From assembly GCA_040376605.1 (NCBI GenBank), contig JBEIQI010000002.1:1-53101 (forward strand): a stretch of 53,101 nt of DNA, given 5' to 3'. The notes beneath the pieces are model-generated. The model saw only the letters and a program-made list of their open reading frames with translations. It was not told the DNA's origin and searched no databases. Source of the stretch: Flavobacteriales bacterium. GTDB lineage: Bacteria > Bacteroidota > Bacteroidia > CAIKAF01. Within the stretch, counting starts at the first letter, position 1. The number at the start of each line of letters is the position of its first letter. Shown here in pieces: positions 10,390 through 40,386 of this stretch. The position numbers and the translations under genes are program-made.

Positions 10390-10397
10390 TATATTTG
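10390..10397 (+). promoter_or_regulatory. Bacteroidota -7 box (TAnnTTTG) upstream of dnaG
   Basis: TATATTTG lies 9 nt before the ATG at 10407. This argues against the TTG at 10395 as the start. Confidence 0.3.
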
Positions 10398-14334: not shown

Positions 14335-14342
14335 TACTTTTG
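14335..14342 (+). promoter_or_regulatory. Bacteroidota -7 box (TAnnTTTG)
   Basis: TACTTTTG lies 22 nt upstream of the ATG at 14364. Confidence 0.35.
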
Positions 14343-15664: not shown

Positions 15665-16315
15665 TTAGATTCTATTGATCTTGCCGTTGGTGAACTCAAT
15701 ATTATAATCTCCTTCCACTCTGAAATATGAACTATGGGGAATATCATCAGTAGGAAACCATCTTCTTTTTTCTTTGTTGAGAATAATAAAAAGTCCATTT
15801 TCATCGCCGGCAGCGCAGAATACTTCGAAATCGCCCGAATATATTGGTAAAGGTTTAACCTGATTGATATGATGAAAGGTACGTTCCATGTTATTCACAG
15901 GGAGTCCAATTTCACTAATACATAATAAGCTTTCGGGACGAAATGGATTATTGCTTTCTATTTTTAAATTTTTTCTGGCAATAAATTCTACAATATTATT
16001 GTCCTTGTCATAGAAGTAAATAGCTTCAGCATTCCAATCGTTGAATTGTTGAATTTCTTTCATATCATCCGTAAGAATTTCAACCCTCTGTTTGAGCCAG
16101 GCTAATGCTTCTTTTATTTGATTGGATGGAATATTAAATGCAAAATGATAGGGTGTGGAGGTTTCCCGAAAATAAAATGAAAGGATAGAGGTCCCAATTT
16201 TAAAACTACTATGGTCTTCGGTTTTCTCCATTAACTTAAAACCCAAAATATCCTTATAAAAGCTGGTTTGTTCTTCCAGTTGGGCGGTGTATAAAATAAG
16301 TCTATTAATTCTCAT
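15665..16315 (-). CDS. VOC (glyoxalase/bleomycin-resistance/dioxygenase) family protein
   Basis: The N-terminus MRINRLILYTAQLEEQTSFYKDILGF is typical of VOC folds. Start at Met12 of the ORF (ATG 16315-16313), overlapping the upstream stop by 11 nt. Confidence 0.55.
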   Translation of the reverse strand: MRINRLILYTAQLEEQTSFYKDILGFKLMEKTEDHSSFKIGTSILSFYFRETSTPYHFAFNIPSNQIKEALAWLKQRVEILTDDMKEIQQFNDWNAEAIYFYDKDNNIVEFIARKNLKIESNNPFRPESLLCISEIGLPVNNMERTFHHINQVKPLPIYSGDFEVFCAAGDENGLFIILNKEKRRWFPTDDIPHSSYFRVEGDYNIEFTNGKINRI

Positions 16316-16784
16316 TGATGATTTCTTTCCATTTATCCGTTTCAGCAAACTCCTTAATCACTGCATTTCTCTCTAATAAAAATCGGGTCATATAATTTTT
16401 TAAAAAGAGAAAGTTGGCAAATTTACCTAAAATTCCCAAGGGAGCTGTATAATCGAAAATATCTGCCATAATTGTTTTGGAATGTTTTTCCTCAAAGTGA
16501 TGGTGGTGATGAAATCTTTTAAAGGCCCCAAAGACTTGTTCATCGGAAAAATGGGTTGGAGATGTTACTTTTGTTATCTTGGAGTGGAGTTGCTGCCTTA
16601 CACCTAAGTGCACGGCTTCCCAGGTAACCGTGTCACCTTCTTCTACCAATCCGGTTGTTCTTCCAGAAATAGCTTTCTCATGGGTCTTTTGGGTAGTAAT
16701 CATATGTAGATCTATACTTCTTGAAAGATCAAAACATCGTTTCATTGGAGCGTTAATTTCGGTTGTAAGATGAATAATGGGCAT
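16305..16784 (-). CDS. SRPBCC-superfamily (START/polyketide-cyclase-like) protein
   Basis: 159 aa. The N-terminal pattern IHLTTEINAPMKRCFDLSRSIDLH resembles SRPBCC ligand-binding proteins. This is pattern recall only. Confidence 0.5.
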   Translation of the reverse strand: MPIIHLTTEINAPMKRCFDLSRSIDLHMITTQKTHEKAISGRTTGLVEEGDTVTWEAVHLGVRQQLHSKITKVTSPTHFSDEQVFGAFKRFHHHHHFEEKHSKTIMADIFDYTAPLGILGKFANFLFLKNYMTRFLLERNAVIKEFAETDKWKEIINEN

Positions 16785-16878
16785 ATATCAAAACTACTAA
16801 AACTTATGGACACCTGACCGAGGAACCTAATTGAGTATTTGTAAGCCTAAAGACCTTATCATTTTGAGGGGCCTTTAT

Positions 16879-16922
16879 AAAAAGAAACCCTTAATCATCT
16901 TAATTTGATGAATAAGGGTTTC
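16879..16922 (-). terminator. Rho-independent terminator closing the SMC-like operon
   Basis: 16-position stem with 15 pairs and 1 mismatch (16884-16899 with 16907-16922) and a 7-nt loop. On the minus strand it is followed by UUUUU (16883-16879), 19 nt after the stop at 16941. Confidence 0.75.
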
Positions 16923-16940
16923 CAACGAAATCTAGAAATG

Positions 16941-17477
16941 CTAATTATTAGTAGGCTCTACCTCTTTGCTTCTGCTTTTTGCTAATTCAATAGCAAATTC
17001 TATAAAAACCTTGTAAGCAGAGGTAAAAGTAAAACGATCCTCAGTTACCTTTTCTACAATGTGACGACGATTCATGGCATTAACTAAGGTTCTTCTGGCA
17101 TCAGAGTCCTTTAATTGTTTATTTGACAAGATCAAATCAATAAATGAAGAATTGTCAAACATCCGATCAACCTCTTCCATCTCAAATTCACTGTATTGAA
17201 TTTGATCAAGAAAATTTCTCCCATCACGGTCTAACTCGTAACAAATAATAGCGAAAAATATACTGATATCTCTGCTCAAGGTTTCTTGTGTTTCCTGAGA
17301 AATAACATATGCGAAATCATTGGTTACATTTAAGGTATAACCAAATGATTCTTTAAAGAAACTTGCATAAAATGCTTCATTTTCTTTAAGGGATTCAAAA
17401 TATTTTACGGAAGGAAGGATAAATTTACCTGCCATTAAATCTTCAACAATTTCTTTATGATTCTTTGGATATTCCAT
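16941..17477 (-). CDS. MukE/MksE/JetB-like (KITE-type) small subunit candidate
   Basis: 178 aa. The N-terminal LMAGKFILPS...FYASFFKESFGYTLNVTNDFAYVISQE matches my recollection of the MksE/JetB (DUF4194) pattern. It is the third gene of a tight operon behind an SMC-like ATPase. Confidence 0.5.
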   Translation of the reverse strand: MEYPKNHKEIVEDLMAGKFILPSVKYFESLKENEAFYASFFKESFGYTLNVTNDFAYVISQETQETLSRDISIFFAIICYELDRDGRNFLDQIQYSEFEMEEVDRMFDNSSFIDLILSNKQLKDSDARRTLVNAMNRRHIVEKVTEDRFTFTSAYKVFIEFAIELAKSRSKEVEPTNN

Positions 17478-17495
17478 ATTTGAATAATTTGATAA

Positions 17496-18680
17496 TTAAT
17501 TAAGTATTTTGATTTTTGGTACTGTCATTTTCGAATGTTGAGTTTTAATCTTCACCTTAGAGCCTTTATCTGAAAATTCTTTTTCTAGGTCTTCCTCAAA
17601 TAATAGGGTACACATGGCAAAAAATTTATCCGCATCTACCTCGTTAAACTCATCCATTAGTTCATTTCTGCACCAGGTGAAGAAATCCTGAACAGGTACT
17701 TGTTCTTTTAGTTTAGCTTTTACATTGGTTTTATTAAAAATCCATTGTTCATGTGATTGTGGATCTTCCTCAATAAATACCTCTTCTTCATCCATAAATT
17801 GTTCAAAGAACTCCTTGGTATGAAAGAATAGATTTTTGCTGTATGCAGCACTTCTTCCCGATTTAAGAAGCTTGGGTGTTGTTACCTTATATGGGTTTCT
17901 TAAGAACTCAATCCAACCTGTTAAGATCATCGATTCTGTTCTGATTCTCTCTATTAATGGAAGAAGCTCGTTGGTGAGGATTTTTGATTGACGTAATAGA
18001 TCATCGTTGGTTTGAATTAACTGGTTGTATAATTTTTCAAATTGAGTACGAATACCTTCCTCATCAAAATTCAACCTTCTTTGATTAGCAAAATCAGAAA
18101 TTTCTAATAATTTGTTAGCTACCGAATCTGGATGGTTTACATTTAAAACTGTATTTAAAGGAATGATGTAATATTCAATCCAAAACGAAGCTTTATGAAC
18201 CTTTACCCGATAGTCAACTTTATCTACATTGGCTTTAAGTTCACGTGTTTCATGTAATAAACGTACAGTGTTTTTCTCCACTCCATCTAAAAATTCCCGA
18301 ATTTGTGTCTGAAGATTAATGATCCTTTCACTTAAAATCATTTTATCTCCATTCACTCCATCCTTTATTTTACGATATAATTCACTCATGCTCATGAAAT
18401 ATTTCTCGAATGTTTCAGGAAGCATGGGTTTAAATTCGTACAAGATGAATTCCATTAATTTATAATAGACATCTCTTAATTCATAGTCCGAATTAATCGA
18501 GCGAAGGATTTTATAGTCCTTAAACTGCTGTGTAATGTCGTGGTCATGACGACTGCAAATATCACTCAACTCCTCATGTCTGATAATACCTTCTTTATTT
18601 TGAATGGTATATAATTCTTTAATGATGTCGTAGTAATTTGCTAAGAATCTTAAAATACTAACCGGTTCTGCCTTTATCAT
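17496..18680 (-). CDS. Kleisin-like (MukF/MksF/JetA-position) subunit candidate
   Basis: 394 aa, predicted helical with an acidic C-terminal half. It lies between the ATPase and the MksE-like gene (gaps of 25 and 18 nt). Assigned by position and architecture only. Confidence 0.4.
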   Translation of the reverse strand: MIKAEPVSILRFLANYYDIIKELYTIQNKEGIIRHEELSDICSRHDHDITQQFKDYKILRSINSDYELRDVYYKLMEFILYEFKPMLPETFEKYFMSMSELYRKIKDGVNGDKMILSERIINLQTQIREFLDGVEKNTVRLLHETRELKANVDKVDYRVKVHKASFWIEYYIIPLNTVLNVNHPDSVANKLLEISDFANQRRLNFDEEGIRTQFEKLYNQLIQTNDDLLRQSKILTNELLPLIERIRTESMILTGWIEFLRNPYKVTTPKLLKSGRSAAYSKNLFFHTKEFFEQFMDEEEVFIEEDPQSHEQWIFNKTNVKAKLKEQVPVQDFFTWCRNELMDEFNEVDADKFFAMCTLLFEEDLEKEFSDKGSKVKIKTQHSKMTVPKIKILN

Positions 18681-18705
18681 TTTTTTGATGGTTAAATGTT
18701 AGACA

Positions 18706-21357
18706 TTAAACTCTGTCAACAGACACAGCATTTTGATTTTCGTTTACAGTAATCTTACCTTTTGTATTTCTATAGATGAAATAGTATTTACTAAATCCAT
18801 CATAAGGTTGAGGAGCAGCAAAGATTGGAATGAAGTTATGATCCTTGCAAAATTTAACCAATTCCGGACGGTTTTGCTCATCTATTGTTCCGACCTCATC
18901 GATAAACAAGGCGATTTTGTTTTTAGTATCATTAATGGCCAATCGATTAATAATACTCATTACAATCACCAAACGAATCATTCTATCCGTTCCATCAGAT
19001 TCAACTTGATTTTTCAAATCCACTTTTTTCAAATGTCCCTTTAACATTAAGTGAAGTTCAATATCAAAGATCTCATCAAAGTCAATTTTTTTACCGCTAT
19101 CTAAATATTTATTGAGGGTTTCCAATTGTTCACGATGTTCTCCGCTATCGAAGTTGAATTGACTTCTTAAATCCTGTATTGAGGAAATTTTAATTAAATC
19201 ATCCATGATTCGCTTATTCTCAACCAATTCAATTTTTAATGAATCAATGTCGGAAATTTTGGTGGTTGCCAGTTTCTGATTGAAACGTGAATAAACAAAT
19301 TCTTTAAACTCGTTATATCTGCGAATTAAATTGAATGCAGGATTAGCAAACTGTGTAGAGATACTTTGTAATAAACCTTCGATTGATTTTTCTTTATCTT
19401 CTAAACAAGCGATTTCGTCTTCAATAAATTTAATGAACTGCTCTTCGTCGGCCAATCCACTGTTCATTTTATATCGCAGACTATCGAACATTCTATCCTT
19501 ATTATATTTAAGGGTTTCCCGGTCCTCCGAATGTAAAATGAGTTTTTGGTAAATAACTTCTAAACTTTCACTTGATTCATTTTCAATAGCGTCCAAACCA
19601 AAGGTTTCTACTTGCACCTTTTGTCTTCTTAACTCTTCGATACGAGCATCCAATTTATTTTTCTCTTCTTTGCTTTGTTGCAATAAGTTGGTTTTTTCGA
19701 ATATTGATCTGGTAAGACCTATTAATTCGCGTTCAAGTCTTTCACGTTCTGCAATCAAGTCGTTGAGTTCAGCATTTTGTTGAGCTAATTTCTTTTCAAC
19801 TTTTGGCAAACCATCTATCAAACGAATTTTTTCATGGATTTCCGCAATGTTTCTTTGAATGCCATGCAATTCTTCTACGGTTTGCTCTAGATGATTGGCA
19901 GCTTCGAGTAATTTCTCAGTATCCTGTTTATCATTCTTTAAAAGCTGCAGTTGCTCTTTTAATTCTTCTAAAGAAGGAAGCTCCTTTAGTTCAAAGTTCT
20001 TAGGTAGATTGATTTCTCCATCAAAGATTTGAATTTTATTGGAGGTCTTGGTGATTTTCTTTTTGATCAAATCGGCACTTTGTCCGGCAAAATCCTCCGA
20101 AAGAATCGTATATAATAATTTCTTATCAGCTTGTTTATCTGTTAAATTATGAATTAGTTGGTTGTTGAAATTATTAACCTGATTTTCAACTCTTCCTAAA
20201 TCATGGTTGATTTTTTCTAATTTGGATTCTAGTTGCTTGGCAGAAATTTTCTGGGATTCTAATCGTGTTAAACGAACTTCAATTTCTTTTCTGGTAATGT
20301 TTAAGTTCTCTAAACTCTCTTGTAAAAAATCTTTACCCTCAAATGCTTTTACCTCATCTACTTGTTTTTGCAGTTCATGGGTTGATTTCATTAAAGTTTC
20401 AGCAAGGGCTGTCTTGGCGCCGATTTGCTGATTTAATGTCTGCTTTTTGGGTTCTAATTCTTCGTTGATTTCAGTTTGTAAGGAAATAATATCCTTCTCT
20501 TTCTGAATGATTCGATGGTTAAGTTCGGGCAGAGTAACTGAATAGTTATTGTTAAAGGAATAAATCAATTCAGCTACAATTTTTGTTTTTGCATTGTATT
20601 GATTCACAATTTCACGGAAATTTTCAAAATCACCCTGAATGGTTCTTATTACTTTAATCTCATCATTGATTCTTAAAAGATCCGTGATGTCTTTTTTGTT
20701 TTTTTGCGAAAAACTCAGTTTTTCATTCTCTCTATTATCAGCAATAATTAAGGCATCTTTCAACGATTTATTGGTAATCAATTTGGAGTTGATTAAATAC
20801 CTGTAAACTTTACTGAAATTGTTGTTTAGGCCATCACTTTTAACGGTATCCTCTAACCATACAGCGGCATTACTTTCTGTACCTCTTTGATACAAGAAAT
20901 TAAAATATTCCGATTTGCTTTTGAATTGATATAGTTCTAATCCCTCTTTAGAAACAATATCAGCAATTTCTTCAAATTTTCTGATTTTTTGCTGTTTCTC
21001 TACTTTCTCAAAGAAATATTCCTCTCTAAATTCACAATTCAATCGATAATATTCAAGTTCACCTTCAATATCACGTTTCACAATGATGCAATAGGGAGTA
21101 AATTTTCCACATTCAAAAATGATATAACTCTGGTTTACCGTAGGGAAATAATGATGAATGGTTTCCTTATCTCCTTTACGATTACCCGAAAATGACATTC
21201 GGCTTCCATCTACGATGAATAAAAAGTTAAGGGCATATATTAAGGTGGATTTACCAATATTGTTGGGTCCTACCAGTTGGATGGAATCACAATCATCCAA
21301 AAGCATTTCGGCTTTTGAGTAAATGCTTGAATTTAAGATCACTAATCGTTGTAGCAT
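18706..21357 (-). CDS. MukB/MksB/JetC-family SMC-like ABC ATPase with short coiled-coil arms
   Basis: 883 aa. Walker A GPNNIGKST at residues 30-38, about 500 aa of heptad-rich E/K/L/Q sequence, then a C-terminal head with ESDGTDRM (signature-like) and Walker B ALFIDEVG. Confidence 0.75.
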   Translation of the reverse strand: MLQRLVILNSSIYSKAEMLLDDCDSIQLVGPNNIGKSTLIYALNFLFIVDGSRMSFSGNRKGDKETIHHYFPTVNQSYIIFECGKFTPYCIIVKRDIEGELEYYRLNCEFREEYFFEKVEKQQKIRKFEEIADIVSKEGLELYQFKSKSEYFNFLYQRGTESNAAVWLEDTVKSDGLNNNFSKVYRYLINSKLITNKSLKDALIIADNRENEKLSFSQKNKKDITDLLRINDEIKVIRTIQGDFENFREIVNQYNAKTKIVAELIYSFNNNYSVTLPELNHRIIQKEKDIISLQTEINEELEPKKQTLNQQIGAKTALAETLMKSTHELQKQVDEVKAFEGKDFLQESLENLNITRKEIEVRLTRLESQKISAKQLESKLEKINHDLGRVENQVNNFNNQLIHNLTDKQADKKLLYTILSEDFAGQSADLIKKKITKTSNKIQIFDGEINLPKNFELKELPSLEELKEQLQLLKNDKQDTEKLLEAANHLEQTVEELHGIQRNIAEIHEKIRLIDGLPKVEKKLAQQNAELNDLIAERERLERELIGLTRSIFEKTNLLQQSKEEKNKLDARIEELRRQKVQVETFGLDAIENESSESLEVIYQKLILHSEDRETLKYNKDRMFDSLRYKMNSGLADEEQFIKFIEDEIACLEDKEKSIEGLLQSISTQFANPAFNLIRRYNEFKEFVYSRFNQKLATTKISDIDSLKIELVENKRIMDDLIKISSIQDLRSQFNFDSGEHREQLETLNKYLDSGKKIDFDEIFDIELHLMLKGHLKKVDLKNQVESDGTDRMIRLVIVMSIINRLAINDTKNKIALFIDEVGTIDEQNRPELVKFCKDHNFIPIFAAPQPYDGFSKYYFIYRNTKGKITVNENQNAVSVDRV

Positions 21358-21377
21358 GGTTCAAAATATTTAACTCT

Positions 21378-21385
21378 CAAAAATA
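21378..21385 (-). promoter_or_regulatory. Bacteroidota -7 box (TAnnTTTG) for the SMC-like operon
   Basis: The minus strand reads TATTTTTG, ending 20 nt upstream of the ATG at 21357. Confidence 0.4.
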
Positions 21386-21562: not shown

Positions 21563-23977
21563 ATGCATCCGACAATAAAATTAGCAAGTGATTGGTTCAA
21601 GACTTTAGGGTGGCAACCACAGGATTTTCAATTGGCCTCCTGGCAAGCTTTTGTGGATGGTAAAAATGGTATTGTAAATGCCCCCACCGGTAGTGGAAAA
21701 ACCTATTCCATCTTACTTCCGGTCATTTTGCAATCTCTGAATGATCCAGGAAATGGGATACGAATTATTTGGATTACTCCCATAAGAGCTTTAGCCAAGG
21801 AAATTAAAATATCCGCAGACAAAGCGTTATTGGGACTGGGTGTTGATTGGGGAGTTTCAATTCGTACCGGAGATACAAGTATTTCGGATCGAAAAAAACA
21901 GAATAAAAAGCCACCTGAAATTTTAATTACTACACCCGAAAGTTTACATATTTTGTTAGCAACCAAGGGGTATGCTAACCTATTTGCGAATTTAAAATGT
22001 TTGGTCGCTGATGAATGGCACGAACTCATGGGTTCCAAAAGAGGTGTTCAGGTTGAATTGGCTTTAAGTCGACTAAAAGGTCTTCAAGAATCATTAAAAA
22101 TATGGGGAATTTCTGCCACCATTGGTAATTTGGATCAGGCGATGGATGTACTTTTGGGGGCCGATTCTGCAAATGGAGTACTCATTCGTTCATCCATTAA
22201 AAAGGTACCTTTGGTAGAAACTATTGTGCCTGATGATCTTGAAAAATTTCCATGGGGAGGGCATCTGGGAACCAAATTATTAGATAAAATTTTACCAGTA
22301 TTACATCAAAGTAAAACCACTTTAATTTTTACGAATACCAGATCTCAATGTGAGAATTGGTATCGTAAGATTTTGGAGGCTGATCCGGACATGTCTGGTT
22401 TGATTGCTATGCACCATGGAAGCATCTCTCAGGAAATTAGAAATTGGGTAGAGGAACAGTTATATATAGGAAAGTTGAAGGCGGTCGTTTGTACTTCTAG
22501 TTTAGATTTAGGGGTGGATTTTCGACCTGTTGAAACCATTATACAAATTGGTGGTCCTAAGGGGATTTCCCGCTTTTTGCAACGTGCAGGTAGAAGTGGT
22601 CATAGACCTGGTGAAATCAGTAAAATTTATTTTGTTCCTACACATAGTTTGGAAATTGCAGAAGGAGCCGCTTTAAGATCTGCTATTGAGCAAGAAATTA
22701 TGGAAGATAGAATCCCATATATAAGGTCGTTTGATGTTTTGGTTCAGTATTTAATCACTTTGGCTGTTTCTGACGGATTTGAACCTAAATCTGCATTAAA
22801 GGAGATTAAATCAACCCATTCCTTCGCATCTATATCGGATGATGAGTTTGAAGAGGTATTGCAATTTATTACTACAGGAGGTACTTCCCTTCATGCCTAC
22901 GACGAATATCATAAGGTGGTTTTTGAAAATGGTAAAATTAAAGTGAATGACATACGAATTGCCAGGCGTCATAGACTATCTATTGGAACTATCGTAAGTG
23001 ATGTGATGATCAAGGTAAAGTTAATGGGAGGGCGAAATATCGGTTCCATTGAAGAAAGCTTTATCGGCCGACTAAATCCTGGTGACGTATTTGGGTTAGC
23101 TGGTTTAACGTTGGAGTTGCAAAAAATAGAAGGAATGACGGCGTATGTCCGTAAATCCCCCAACAAAAAAGGAATGATTCCAAGCTGGGGAGGAGGAAGA
23201 TTACCTCTGAGTGCTCAACTGGGAGATGTTTTACGGCAGGAAATATATTCAGCTTATGGTAAAAGTAAACATCCTGAAATACAAGCATTAATGCCATTGT
23301 TTAATCTGCAAAGGAGTAGAAGTATTTTGCCTAGTGAAAATGAGTTTTTGATAGAAAAGTTTAGAACGGATGAAGGGGTGCATGTATTGTGTTATCCATT
23401 TGAAGGTCGTTTTGTACATGAAGGAATGGCTGCTCTATTAGCCCATCGTTTGGGTCATATTGGGAAATTTACATTTTCCATTGCAATGAATGATTATGGT
23501 TTCGAATTATTATCTGATCAGGATATCCCAATTGAATTGGCTGTTGATACAGATATATTTTCAAACGAGCATTTGATGCTGGATATTCAGGCCAGCATTA
23601 ACAGTAATGAAATGGCTAAACGTAAGTTTAGGGATATAGCAACCATTGGGGGATTGGTGTTTACAGGTTATCCGGGAAGTCAAAAGGCTGATAGACATCT
23701 TCAGTCAAGCAGTCAACTATTTTTTGATGTATTTATGGAGCAAGAGCCGAATCATTTATTATTGCGGCAGGCTTTTGAAGAAGTTTTTGAATTTCAGTTA
23801 GATCAACAGCGTATGAAAAATGCGTTGGACAGAATCCAAAGCCAAAAAATTATTATTAAATATCCTGATAAGCCTACTCCATTTGCTTATCCAATTATGG
23901 CCGAAAGAATTAGAGAAAGTTATAGTAACGAAAGCCTGGAAGATAGGGTAAGAAAAATGTTGTTACAGTTTGAATAA
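21563..23977 (+). CDS. Lhr-type DEXH-box helicase (ligase-associated DNA damage response helicase family)
   Basis: 804 aa with motif I NAPTGSGKT, motif II DEWH, III SAT, VI QRAGRSGH, and a long C-terminal DEAD-associated-like region. Confidence 0.8.
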   Translation: MHPTIKLASDWFKTLGWQPQDFQLASWQAFVDGKNGIVNAPTGSGKTYSILLPVILQSLNDPGNGIRIIWITPIRALAKEIKISADKALLGLGVDWGVSIRTGDTSISDRKKQNKKPPEILITTPESLHILLATKGYANLFANLKCLVADEWHELMGSKRGVQVELALSRLKGLQESLKIWGISATIGNLDQAMDVLLGADSANGVLIRSSIKKVPLVETIVPDDLEKFPWGGHLGTKLLDKILPVLHQSKTTLIFTNTRSQCENWYRKILEADPDMSGLIAMHHGSISQEIRNWVEEQLYIGKLKAVVCTSSLDLGVDFRPVETIIQIGGPKGISRFLQRAGRSGHRPGEISKIYFVPTHSLEIAEGAALRSAIEQEIMEDRIPYIRSFDVLVQYLITLAVSDGFEPKSALKEIKSTHSFASISDDEFEEVLQFITTGGTSLHAYDEYHKVVFENGKIKVNDIRIARRHRLSIGTIVSDVMIKVKLMGGRNIGSIEESFIGRLNPGDVFGLAGLTLELQKIEGMTAYVRKSPNKKGMIPSWGGGRLPLSAQLGDVLRQEIYSAYGKSKHPEIQALMPLFNLQRSRSILPSENEFLIEKFRTDEGVHVLCYPFEGRFVHEGMAALLAHRLGHIGKFTFSIAMNDYGFELLSDQDIPIELAVDTDIFSNEHLMLDIQASINSNEMAKRKFRDIATIGGLVFTGYPGSQKADRHLQSSSQLFFDVFMEQEPNHLLLRQAFEEVFEFQLDQQRMKNALDRIQSQKIIIKYPDKPTPFAYPIMAERIRESYSNESLEDRVRKMLLQFE

Positions 23978-38421: not shown

Positions 38422-38429
38422 TATCTTTG
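38422..38429 (+). promoter_or_regulatory. Bacteroidota -7 box (TAnnTTTG)
   Basis: TATCTTTG lies 27 nt upstream of the ATG at 38457. Confidence 0.35.
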
Positions 38430-40378: not shown

Positions 40379-40386
40379 TATTTTTG
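40379..40386 (+). promoter_or_regulatory. Bacteroidota -7 box (TAnnTTTG) upstream of metG
   Basis: TATTTTTG lies 17 nt before the ATG at 40404. It falls inside the ORF-track N-terminal extension, which argues against that extension. Confidence 0.4.

What the first reader, a model, noticed from the sequence alone, without database searches (positions are those of the whole stretch)
16879..21385. Compact MukBEF/MksBEF-like SMC module with ATPase-first (B-F-E) gene order and no JetD/MksG nuclease gene
Three tightly spaced minus-strand genes (gaps of 25 and 18 nt) form a self-contained unit. They are bounded by a TAnnTTTG box 20 nt upstream of the first ATG and by a terminator with a 16-position stem (15 pairs, 1 mismatch) and a U-tract. 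Gene 1 (883 aa) has Walker A GPNNIGKST at residues 30-38, about 500 aa of heptad-rich sequence, and a C-terminal head with ESDGTDRM and Walker B ALFIDEVG. From recalled alignment, not computation, the head layout reads like MukB/MksB/JetC rather than Smc or RecN. Gene 3 (178 aa) opens with LMAGKFILPS...FYASFFKESFGYTLNVTNDFAYVISQE, a pattern I associate with MukE/MksE/JetB. Gene 2 (394 aa, helical, acidic C-terminal half) occupies the kleisin position. Canonical loci run F-E-B (mukFEB, mksFEB) or jetABCD. Here the ATPase comes first, all three proteins are clearly shorter than the canonical ones, and no Toprim/JetD-type gene is nearby. Bacteroidota normally use Smc-ScpAB. This is therefore either an accessory condensin or a nuclease-less Wadjet-like DNA-sensing module with a different effector. 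The operon also looks more A+T-rich than its neighbours by eye, which I did not compute.
Basis: partly seen in the sequence, partly recalled or inferred. Interest (0 to 1): 0.8.

Follow-up and report, generated by a model that had tools for sequence, protein, structure and literature searches.

The report
Compact nuclease-less MukBEF-like SMC operon
Three adjacent genes encode a half-size relative of the MukBEF/Wadjet DNA-looping machines; sister lineages keep a nuclease gene inside the operon, this one has none, and the module looks like a fixed, strongly conserved chromosomal system in some Bacteroidota rather than a mobile defence island.

Summary
Three minus-strand genes of 883, 394 and 178 aa are separated by 25 and 18 nt and end in a strong terminator. 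The 178-aa protein is a MukE/MksE-type KITE subunit (Pfam PF21980, 78 bits). The modelled 394-aa protein has kleisin architecture and matches MukF, then JetA. The ATPase model matches MukB best, ahead of Rad50 and JetC. The reading as a MukBEF/Wadjet-group module is therefore supported.

New findings:
- The B-F-E order holds in all 69 loci complete enough to judge (68 Bacteroidota MAG loci plus the window).
- Sister and deeper lineages carry a 263–275-aa JetD-like Toprim gene between B and F (B-G-F-E). The tree implies several independent losses.
- All four proteins have compact relatives in canonical F-E-B-G order on a Salinibacter plasmid.
- No trace of G exists in the 53-kb window.
- The low GC comes from amino-acid composition. 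GC3 is normal.
- B, F and E are more conserved (87–94%) than the syntenic housekeeping neighbours (62–82%).
- In one lineage B and F-E are unlinked.

I found no paper on this compact family. It matches no PADLOC JetA/JetB model and is absent from the 2025 Wadjet operon census. The most likely function is a domesticated, nuclease-free DNA-entrapping or loop-extruding complex acting on the chromosome. That function is inferred, not shown.

The parts
21378..21385 (-). Candidate Bacteroidota-type -7 promoter box TATTTTTG, 20 nt upstream of the ATG of the ATPase gene
   Evidence: Read directly from the sequence. The motif is not enriched in the window (61 matches against 77 expected), so only its position supports it. 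Function is inferred.
18706..21357 (-). mksB-like SMC ATPase, 883 aa. N-head about residues 1-215 (Walker A 30-38), coiled coil 218-395, small hinge about 396-462 (invariant FDGE 445-448), coiled coil 463-697, C-head about 700-850 (signature-like SDGT 787-790, Walker B D820-E821).
   Evidence: ORF. Invariant motifs across 27 homologues. AF2 model, pLDDT 72. Foldseek hits: MukB 7nyw_B 6.7e-19, Rad50 1.4e-11, JetC 4e-11. Pfam hits are all below threshold: MukB_N 18.7 bits against a cutoff of 23.
17496..18680 (-). mksF/mukF-like kleisin, 394 aa. N-terminal winged helix (5-80), helical bundle (88-261), disordered acidic linker (265-312), C-terminal winged helix (317-393).
   Evidence: AF2 model, pLDDT 74. 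The top 11 Foldseek hits are all MukF or JetA: 9gm7_C 2.4e-5, 7nz2, 3euh, 3rpu, 1t98, 8q72_E, 9qxt_E. No Pfam, NCBIfam or PADLOC hit. Distinct family of 122 clusters, full-length members about 390-425 aa.
16941..17477 (-). mksE/mukE-type KITE subunit, 178 aa
   Evidence: Pfam PF21980 MksE, E = 1.2e-21, 78.2 bits against a cutoff of 27, model positions 2-162 of 163. E. coli MukE hits the same model at 173 bits. NCBI already names some homologues 'condensin complex protein MksE'.
16878..16923 (-). Intrinsic terminator: 16-position stem with one mismatch, 7-nt loop, T-tract
   Evidence: Read from the sequence. RNA fold -21.7 kcal/mol, z = -5.16, 0 of 200 shuffles fold as well.

Best explanation
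The three genes encode a compact member of the MukBEF/Wadjet (Mks) group of SMC complexes. It comprises an 883-aa MukB-like ATPase with roughly half-length coiled-coil arms, a 394-aa MukF-like kleisin and a 178-aa MukE/MksE-type KITE protein.

By analogy with MukBEF and JetABC, I infer the following. The ATPase dimerises at its small hinge. The kleisin bridges the neck of one head and the cap of the other, and dimerises through its N-terminal winged-helix and helical domain. Two KITE subunits bind the kleisin linker. ATP binding and hydrolysis (Walker A K36, Walker B E821) then drive DNA entrapment and loop extrusion.

The family's ancestral form is a four-gene plasmid-restriction-type system, B-G-F-E, with a short JetD-like Toprim nuclease G. 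The lineage of this window has lost G, as have several others independently. It keeps B, F and E under strong purifying selection in a stable, syntenic, housekeeping chromosomal context.

I therefore read it as a domesticated, nuclease-free SMC complex that acts on the host chromosome (organisation, segregation or similar). This parallels MukBEF and Pseudomonas MksBEF. It is not an active DNA-cleaving defence system.

Shown here: subunit identities, gene order, absence of G, conservation and context.
Inferred: complex assembly, loop extrusion and the chromosomal role.

Confidence is 0.9 that this is a Wadjet/Mks-group SMC-kleisin-KITE module and about 0.55 that its role is chromosomal.
For: Subunit identity:
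- E: Pfam MksE at 78 bits. MukE hits the same model.
- F: kleisin architecture, with top Foldseek hits to MukF and JetA.
- B: top Foldseek hits to MukB, then Rad50 and JetC. ATPase motifs are invariant.

Family context:
- B-G-F-E with a JetD_C/DUF7281-like Toprim protein occurs in L015, L021, L024, L042, L043, L081 and L084. L086 shows G-F-E on a short contig.
- All four proteins have homologues in F-E-B-G order on Salinibacter pSR76.
- In the NJ tree of F the deep branches are G+, and the crown G+ clade is paraphyletic. This implies repeated loss.

Domestication:
- No G anywhere in the window or in the 75 loci of the survey that lack G.
- B>F>E order holds in 69 of 81 loci; 10 of the remaining 12 are cut by contig ends, and in L007 and L074 B is unlinked.
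- Neighbours are housekeeping genes and differ between clades.
- GC3 equals the genomic mean.
- B, F and E are 87-94% identical to those of L001 and L002, against 62-82% for syntenic neighbours that include DnaG.
- B and F-E are unlinked in one lineage, and unrelated genes are inserted between the subunit genes in others.
- None found on viral contigs.

Precedent: several Wadjet-group members, including MukBEF, lack MksG/JetD (PMC7617805).
Against: - No experiment or multimer model shows that the three proteins assemble.
- AF2 confidence is moderate (pLDDT 72-74, pTM 0.36-0.45). Foldseek TM-scores are low because the proteins are elongated and multi-domain.
- I could not check whether these genomes also carry Smc-ScpAB, or a G-like nuclease elsewhere in the genome.
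- The family was found in about 275 of 185,579 species genomes with stringent peptide patterns, and the best 80 loci are all from MAGs. It is not universal in Bacteroidota.
- Strong conservation and chromosomal context are also compatible with a non-cleaving anti-plasmid role.
- The NJ tree is a single-protein distance tree without support values.
Confidence: 0.6

Rival explanations
1. It is still a defence or plasmid-control system. B-F-E senses and loads on small circular or foreign DNA as Wadjet does. It then either recruits a nuclease or other effector encoded elsewhere in the genome, or silences or mis-segregates plasmids without cutting them.
For: Sister clades carry the Toprim G gene inside the operon, and relatives sit on plasmids (next to a DUF262 gene on pSR76). 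The ancestral function is therefore very probably plasmid restriction. Only 53 kb of this genome could be inspected.
Against: No G remnant within 10 kb in 75 loci or anywhere in the window. No conserved fourth gene near the G-less operons. There is no defence-island or mobile-element context. B and F-E are unlinked in one lineage, which is unusual for defence modules. Conservation exceeds that of DnaG primase in close relatives. In characterised Wadjet systems, restriction requires JetD (established knowledge; 10.1101/2022.10.04.510915).
Confidence: 0.22
2. It is a DNA-repair SMC-like complex of the Rad50/SbcC or RecN kind. It tethers broken DNA ends and may work with the neighbouring Lhr-type helicase.
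For: Rad50 is a good Foldseek match (7zr1, 1.4e-11). JGI labels several homologues 'SbcCD ATPase subunit'. An Lhr-like DEXH helicase is divergently adjacent in the window and in L002. UvrA is adjacent to B in L090.
Against: MukB matches are about 7 orders of magnitude better. The partner proteins are a MukF-type kleisin and a MukE-type KITE, not an Mre11/SbcD nuclease. The Lhr and UvrA adjacencies are not conserved across clades.
Confidence: 0.08
3. It is a decaying remnant of a Wadjet-like system that became non-functional once the nuclease was lost.
For: G has been lost. In some MAGs the B gene appears fragmented (L042, L015, L002).
Against: In the loci where the genes are complete, B, F and E have near-constant lengths (B 882-915 aa in 55 loci, F 394-405, E 173-189) and invariant ATPase motifs. 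They are more conserved than neighbouring housekeeping genes. The fragmented copies are most simply explained as assembly errors (multiple frameshifts in L042, a single break in L015, a run of N in L002), which I did not verify.
Confidence: 0.03

Closest known systems
MukBEF (E. coli and relatives)
   Same: SMC ATPase, kleisin with N- and C-terminal winged helices, and a KITE subunit. No nuclease. Chromosomal housekeeping context. The best structural matches of both B and F are MukB and MukF. E and MukE hit the same Pfam model PF21980.
   Different: Gene order is B-F-E, not F-E-B. B is 883 aa against 1486 aa, with arms about half as long and a hinge of about 65 aa. F is 394 aa against 440, and E is 178 aa against 234. 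There are no above-threshold hits to the Pfam MukB, MukF or MukE (PF04288) models. HMM and hhalign comparison with E. coli MukF and MukE finds nothing. The phylum differs.
Wadjet / MksBEFG / JetABCD (types I-III) plasmid-restriction systems
   Same: Same overall group. Sister clades of this family carry a JetD_C-like Toprim protein in the operon. JetA and JetC are significant structural matches.
   Different: No nuclease in this lineage. There is no hit to the JetA (DUF3375) or JetB (DUF4194) models, only marginal PADLOC JetC scores (E 0.03 and above), and some homologues carry a precomputed PF12128 (DUF3584) label. Gene order is B-(G)-F-E, against jetABCD (F-E-B-G). G, where present, is only 263-275 aa and lies between B and F. 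All subunits are smaller. The family is absent from the 2025 operon census, whose size cut-offs (MksB over 890 aa, MksF 400 aa or more) would exclude most members.
Compact F-E-B-G systems on Salinibacter ruber pSR76 and Pseudomonas amygdali pMPPla107 (all four genes annotated 'hypothetical protein')
   Same: Same size class: B 879/949 aa, F 410/436, E 216/228, G 231/308. E hits PF21980. All four pSR76 proteins match this family's profiles: B 2e-23, G 3e-11, F 1.4e-5, E 2.5e-5. On pMPPla107 only B (2e-23) and E match those profiles, and the F and G roles there rest on gene size and position alone.
   Different: They have the canonical F-E-B-G order, are plasmid-borne and retain the nuclease. 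B is only about 23-27% identical.
Pseudomonas aeruginosa MksBEF (nuclease-less Mks condensin)
   Same: A Wadjet-group complex without MksG that contributes to chromosome management alongside Smc-ScpAB (10.1101/2020.05.18.101659; PMC7485682). This is the functional precedent for the proposed role.
   Different: It has F-E-B order and larger subunits, and is proteobacterial.

Membership tests
Wadjet/Mks group (MukBEF-like SMC complexes) | SMC-like ABC ATPase with a MukB-type head split by a long antiparallel coiled coil and a hinge | tested here: met
   Walker A, signature-like and Walker B motifs are invariant. The AF2 model has a head / coiled-coil / hinge / coiled-coil / head layout. MukB gives the top Foldseek hits at 6.7e-19 and JetC scores 4e-11.
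Wadjet/Mks group (MukBEF-like SMC complexes) | MukF/JetA-type kleisin: N-terminal winged helix plus helical domain, flexible linker, C-terminal winged helix | tested here: met
   AF2 architecture. The top 11 Foldseek hits are all MukF or JetA chains.
Wadjet/Mks group (MukBEF-like SMC complexes) | MukE/MksE/JetB-type KITE subunit | tested here: met
   PF21980 at 78.2 bits over the full model length. E. coli MukE scores 173 bits on the same model.
Wadjet/Mks group (MukBEF-like SMC complexes) | The three genes are co-directional and adjacent, in a conserved operon | tested here: met
   Gaps of 25 and 18 nt. B>F>E order in 69 of 81 loci.
Wadjet/Mks group (MukBEF-like SMC complexes) | Physical assembly: kleisin bridging the SMC neck and cap, KITE dimer on the kleisin, ATP-dependent DNA entrapment | not testable with these tools
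   No multimer prediction or biochemistry was available.
Wadjet defence system sensu stricto (JetABCD / MksBEFG) | JetD/MksG Toprim nuclease encoded with the SMC genes | tested here: not met
   A profile of the family's own G protein finds nothing in the 53-kb window in six frames. G is present in sister clades.
Wadjet defence system sensu stricto (JetABCD / MksBEFG) | Match to the JetA (DUF3375), JetB (DUF4194) and JetC (DUF3584) models used by PADLOC and Pfam | tested here: not met
   PADLOC gives no JetA or JetB hit, and JetC scores E = 0.033. Pfam gives no DUF3375, DUF4194 or DUF3584 hit for the window proteins.
MukBEF proper | Above-threshold matches to the Pfam MukB, MukF and MukE (PF04288) models, and mukF-mukE-mukB order | tested here: not met
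   MukB_N scores 18.7 bits against a cutoff of 23. There are no MukF or MukE (PF04288) hits. The order is B-F-E.
Smc-ScpAB | Smc (TIGR02168/02169) with ScpA kleisin and ScpB | tested here: not met
   TIGR02168 scores 16.8 bits against a cutoff of 567. No ScpA or ScpB hits.
Rad50/SbcC, RecN, RecF | Best similarity to these ATPases and a cognate partner (Mre11/SbcD), with no kleisin or KITE | tested here: not met
   Rad50 scores 1.4e-11 and RecF about 1e-2, both behind MukB. The partners are a kleisin and a KITE protein.
Lamassu (LmuB SMC plus LmuA effector) | LmuB-type ATPase with LmuA effector and LmuC | tested here: not met
   Only weak LmuB hits: PADLOC 1.7e-4 and Foldseek 6e-4. No effector gene is present.

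The most novel reading that the evidence does not exclude
This B-F-E module is a second, independent domestication of a Wadjet-type plasmid-restriction machine into a chromosome-organising condensin, parallel to the origin of MukBEF. In these Flavobacteriales-type lineages it is a principal or essential SMC complex that works with coiled-coil arms about half the usual length. The related B-G-F-E and B-F-E clades would then be a natural series for asking what turns an SMC nuclease system into a chromosome organiser. They could also bear on the reported lack of recognisable condensins in some Bacteroidota (PMC10197239).
Probability: 0.3. Interest if true: 0.8.

Novelty: new variant of a known kind. 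Interest (0 to 1): 0.6.

Why it matters
SMC complexes are thought to depend on tuned arm lengths and on fixed subunit architecture. This family works with an ATPase of about 885 aa, a kleisin of about 395 aa and a KITE protein of about 178 aa. Its gene order is rearranged. It also offers closely related lineages with and without the Toprim nuclease.

That makes it a compact, tractable model for two open questions:
- How does a plasmid-cleaving Wadjet machine become a chromosome-directed, MukBEF-like one?
- What is the minimal SMC-kleisin-KITE machine?

There is also a practical gap. PADLOC's JetA and JetB models do not match it, and its sizes fall under the cut-offs of the latest Wadjet census. 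Such loci are therefore left as 'hypothetical protein' in Bacteroidota genomes.

Tried and rejected
- Single-sequence and profile HMM searches of B, F and E against PDB sequences gave no MukBEF or JetABC hits, only coiled-coil noise.
- hhalign of the F and E family alignments against single E. coli MukF and MukE sequences gave nothing. The link to MukF and MukB therefore rests on predicted structure. The link to MukE rests on the shared Pfam model.
- NCBIfam gave no useful hit.
- The sigma-70 and terminator scanner missed the real terminator because of its one mismatch, and its promoter hits were below chance.
- I considered a foreign-island origin because of the low GC, and rejected it on GC3.
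- I considered the Lhr helicase as a conserved partner, and rejected it because the adjacency holds only in the closest relatives.
- A scan of viral contigs found no relatives.
- Two plasmid accessions from the census (CP044456.1, CP007513.1) are not in the local collection. A direct comparison with census 'BEFG' and 'FEBG' systems was therefore not possible.
- Literature searches for a named subtype (Wadjet IV, DUF7281, PF21980, mini-Wadjet) found nothing.
- I could not identify a cultured carrier organism.


Full report
**Observation**

The window carries three minus-strand ORFs at 18706-21357 (883 aa), 17496-18680 (394 aa) and 16941-17477 (178 aa), separated by 25 and 18 nt.
- TATTTTTG lies at 21385-21378, 20 nt before the first ATG.
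- After the last stop codon comes a hairpin with a 16-position stem, one mismatch, a 7-nt loop and a T-tract. It folds at -21.7 kcal/mol with z = -5.2.
- TAnnTTTG is not enriched in the window (61 matches against 77 expected). Only its position speaks for a promoter.
- Walker A (residues 30-38), ESDGTDRM and ALFIDEVG are present. They are invariant in 27 homologues.

**Composition**

The operon has GC 0.324 against 0.360 for the window. The deficit lies at codon position 2 (0.245 against a mean of 0.355). GC3 is 0.30-0.31 for B and F and 0.26 for E, against a mean of 0.311 for the other genes (z = -0.2, -0.07 and -1.4). The A+T-richness therefore reflects the Lys/Glu/Asn/Ile-rich coiled-coil proteins and not foreign DNA.

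**Identity of the proteins**

- *178-aa protein.* It matches Pfam PF21980 (MksE) over the whole model at 78 bits. E. coli MukE hits the same model at 173 bits, so PF21980 is a MukE-type KITE model. NCBI already labels some homologues 'condensin complex protein MksE'.
- *394-aa protein.* It has no Pfam, NCBIfam or PADLOC hit. Its AF2 model (pLDDT 74) shows an N-terminal winged helix, a helical bundle, a disordered linker of about 48 residues and a C-terminal winged helix. The top 11 Foldseek matches in the PDB are all MukF or JetA chains, the best at 2.4e-5.
- *ATPase.* The model (pLDDT 72) shows two head halves, coiled coils at 218-395 and 463-697, and a small hinge. MukB chains are the best matches (6.7e-19), ahead of Rad50 (1.4e-11), JetC (4e-11), Smc5/6, Lamassu LmuB and RecF.
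- *Sequence-only comparisons.* Searches against PDB sequences and against E. coli MukF and MukE found nothing. The family is a remote one.

**Family and distribution**

- Hundreds of homologues exist. Every one that a source names to organism (all MAGs) is Bacteroidota. Lengths are nearly constant, and identity across named orders is about 55-58%.
- An exhaustive profile search of 1.84 billion representatives found only 122 clusters for the kleisin (E up to 0.001), with full-length members of about 390-425 aa. The family does not merge with JetA or MukF at the sequence level.
- A scan of one genome per species found 275 carriers. The best 80 are all MAGs, nearly all labelled Bacteroidota (Flavobacteriales, Crocinitomicaceae, Cyclobacteriaceae, Chitinophagaceae, Bacteroidia).
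- In 69 of 81 loci, B, F and E all occur in that order on one strand. Ten of the other twelve are cut by contig ends, and L007 and L074 lack B nearby.
- F and E are tightly coupled, with gaps mostly from -35 to +5 nt. The B-F spacer is usually about 100 nt.

**The nuclease**

- In five loci (L015, L021, L024, L042, L043) a 263-aa ORF lies between B and F. In the four where it is intact it overlaps both neighbours.
- It carries Toprim-like motifs (CFVENL, VFVDxDxxG, FLEQE). It weakly matches DUF7281 (1e-5), JetD_C (0.029) and PADLOC JetD1 (0.0012).
- More divergent family members show the same B-G-F-E layout: L081/L082 and L084. L086 shows G-F-E on a short contig.
- In a neighbour-joining tree of the kleisin, the deep branches are G+. 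The crown G+ group is paraphyletic around G-less L020, L071 and L072. The simplest reading is an ancestral B-G-F-E with several independent losses, including in the clade of the window.
- A profile of G finds no trace in the window in six frames, nor in the other G-less loci.

**Plasmid relatives**

Compact relatives in the canonical F-E-B-G order sit on Salinibacter ruber plasmid pSR76 (410/216/879/231 aa) and on Pseudomonas amygdali megaplasmid pMPPla107 (436/228/949/308 aa).
- All four pSR76 proteins match this family's profiles: B 2e-23, G 3e-11, F 1.4e-5, E 2.5e-5.
- Its G reaches the DUF7281 threshold, at 29.4 bits against a cutoff of 27.
- On pMPPla107 only B and E match the profiles, so its F and G are assigned by position and size.

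**Context and selection**

- The window's neighbours are housekeeping genes: DnaG primase, GH20 and GH2 glycosidases, acetyl-CoA hydrolase, glyoxalase, Lhr-type helicase, MscS and CorA. Neighbours in other clades are likewise housekeeping and differ between clades.
- In the closest relatives (L001, L002) synteny is kept. B, F and E are 87-94% identical there, against 62-82% for the flanking genes, including DnaG at 82%.
- In one lineage B lies alone (L090, a 3.59-Mb contig) while F-E lie without B (L007, L074). Elsewhere unrelated genes are inserted between B and F or between F and E.
- No relatives were found on viral contigs.
- Taken together, this fits a vertically kept, selected chromosomal function better than a mobile defence island.

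**Comparison with what is known**

- PADLOC's JetA and JetB models do not match, and JetC scores E = 0.033.
- The 2025 census of Wadjet-group operons lists FEB, FEBG, GFEB, BEF and BEFG. BFE, BGFE and the four other alternative orders I searched for are absent from it. It also lacks the Salinibacter and P. amygdali systems.
- Its cut-offs (MksB over 890 aa, MksF 400-1200 aa) would exclude most members of this family.
- That paper also states that several Wadjet-group members, including MukBEF, lack the nuclease.
- Literature searches found no description of this compact family.
- One Hi-C study reports that no known condensin could be found in some Bacteroidota. I could not test whether carriers of this operon have Smc-ScpAB.

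**Verdict**

This is a compact, rearranged, nuclease-less member of the MukBEF/Wadjet group, derived from a four-gene B-G-F-E ancestor.

The most likely mechanism is an ATP-driven SMC-kleisin-KITE ring that entraps and extrudes DNA and acts on the chromosome. I put membership of the group at 0.9 and the chromosomal role at about 0.55. The rivals are a defence role with a distant or absent effector (about 0.2), a repair role (under 0.1) and decay (about 0.03).

It is a new variant of a known kind. Interest is 0.6.

Noticed in passing
L090:10001-12655; L007:10001-11775; L074:2683-4433: In one lineage the ATPase gene stands alone, followed by an RsmE-type methyltransferase gene and divergent from uvrA. 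The kleisin and KITE genes lie elsewhere, with no ATPase gene on either side in L007 (10 kb each way) or L074 (about 2.7 kb up and 1.8 kb down). The B of L090 is 84-87% identical to the B proteins of the sister clade of L007 and L074.
   Followed up: partly
L011, L014, L019, L023, L041 (between B and F); also L036, where B is cut off by the contig end: An opposite-strand gene of about 290 aa (it looks like an extradiol/LigB-type dioxygenase; no family search was run on it) is inserted between the ATPase and kleisin genes. B and F-E must therefore be separate transcription units there. In L003 two genes (319 and 699 aa) are inserted between F and E.
   Followed up: partly
L088 (Salinibacter ruber pSR76, 55922-60819 in the record) and L089 (P. 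amygdali pMPPla107, 924135-930667): Compact Wadjet-like four-gene systems in F-E-B-G order, all four genes annotated 'hypothetical protein'. On pSR76 the system sits near a DUF262 gene and a thermonuclease gene. They are absent from the 2025 census.
   Followed up: partly
window 21563-23977 (+): An 804-aa Lhr-type DEXH helicase (WH_Lhr, DEAD_assoc) is divergently transcribed from the operon across a 205-nt spacer. The adjacency is kept in L002 but not in other clades.
   Followed up: partly
window 10390-10397, 14335-14342, 16789-16796, 38422-38429, 40379-40386 and others: TAnnTTTG is not enriched overall, yet many copies lie 4-30 nt upstream of gene starts. One lies just after the operon terminator and before the next gene (16784). 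This fits short-leader Bacteroidota promoters.
   Followed up: no
L042:7413-9229; L015:6537-9227; L002:7203-9879: The ATPase gene is split by frameshifts, or by a run of N in L002, in these MAGs. Assembly errors seem the likeliest cause, not pseudogenes. This was not verified.
   Followed up: no
L002, L010, L036, L022, L031, L032 (record titles): Several carrier MAGs are labelled Competibacteraceae, Comamonadaceae or Chryseobacterium gleum. Their loci nevertheless cluster with the Flavobacteriales-type sequences, so the taxon labels are probably wrong.
   Followed up: no
window 16305-16784 (-): A 159-aa ORF directly downstream of the operon has no Pfam hit at E up to 1e-5. It is conserved (75% identity) at the same position in L001.
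   Followed up: no
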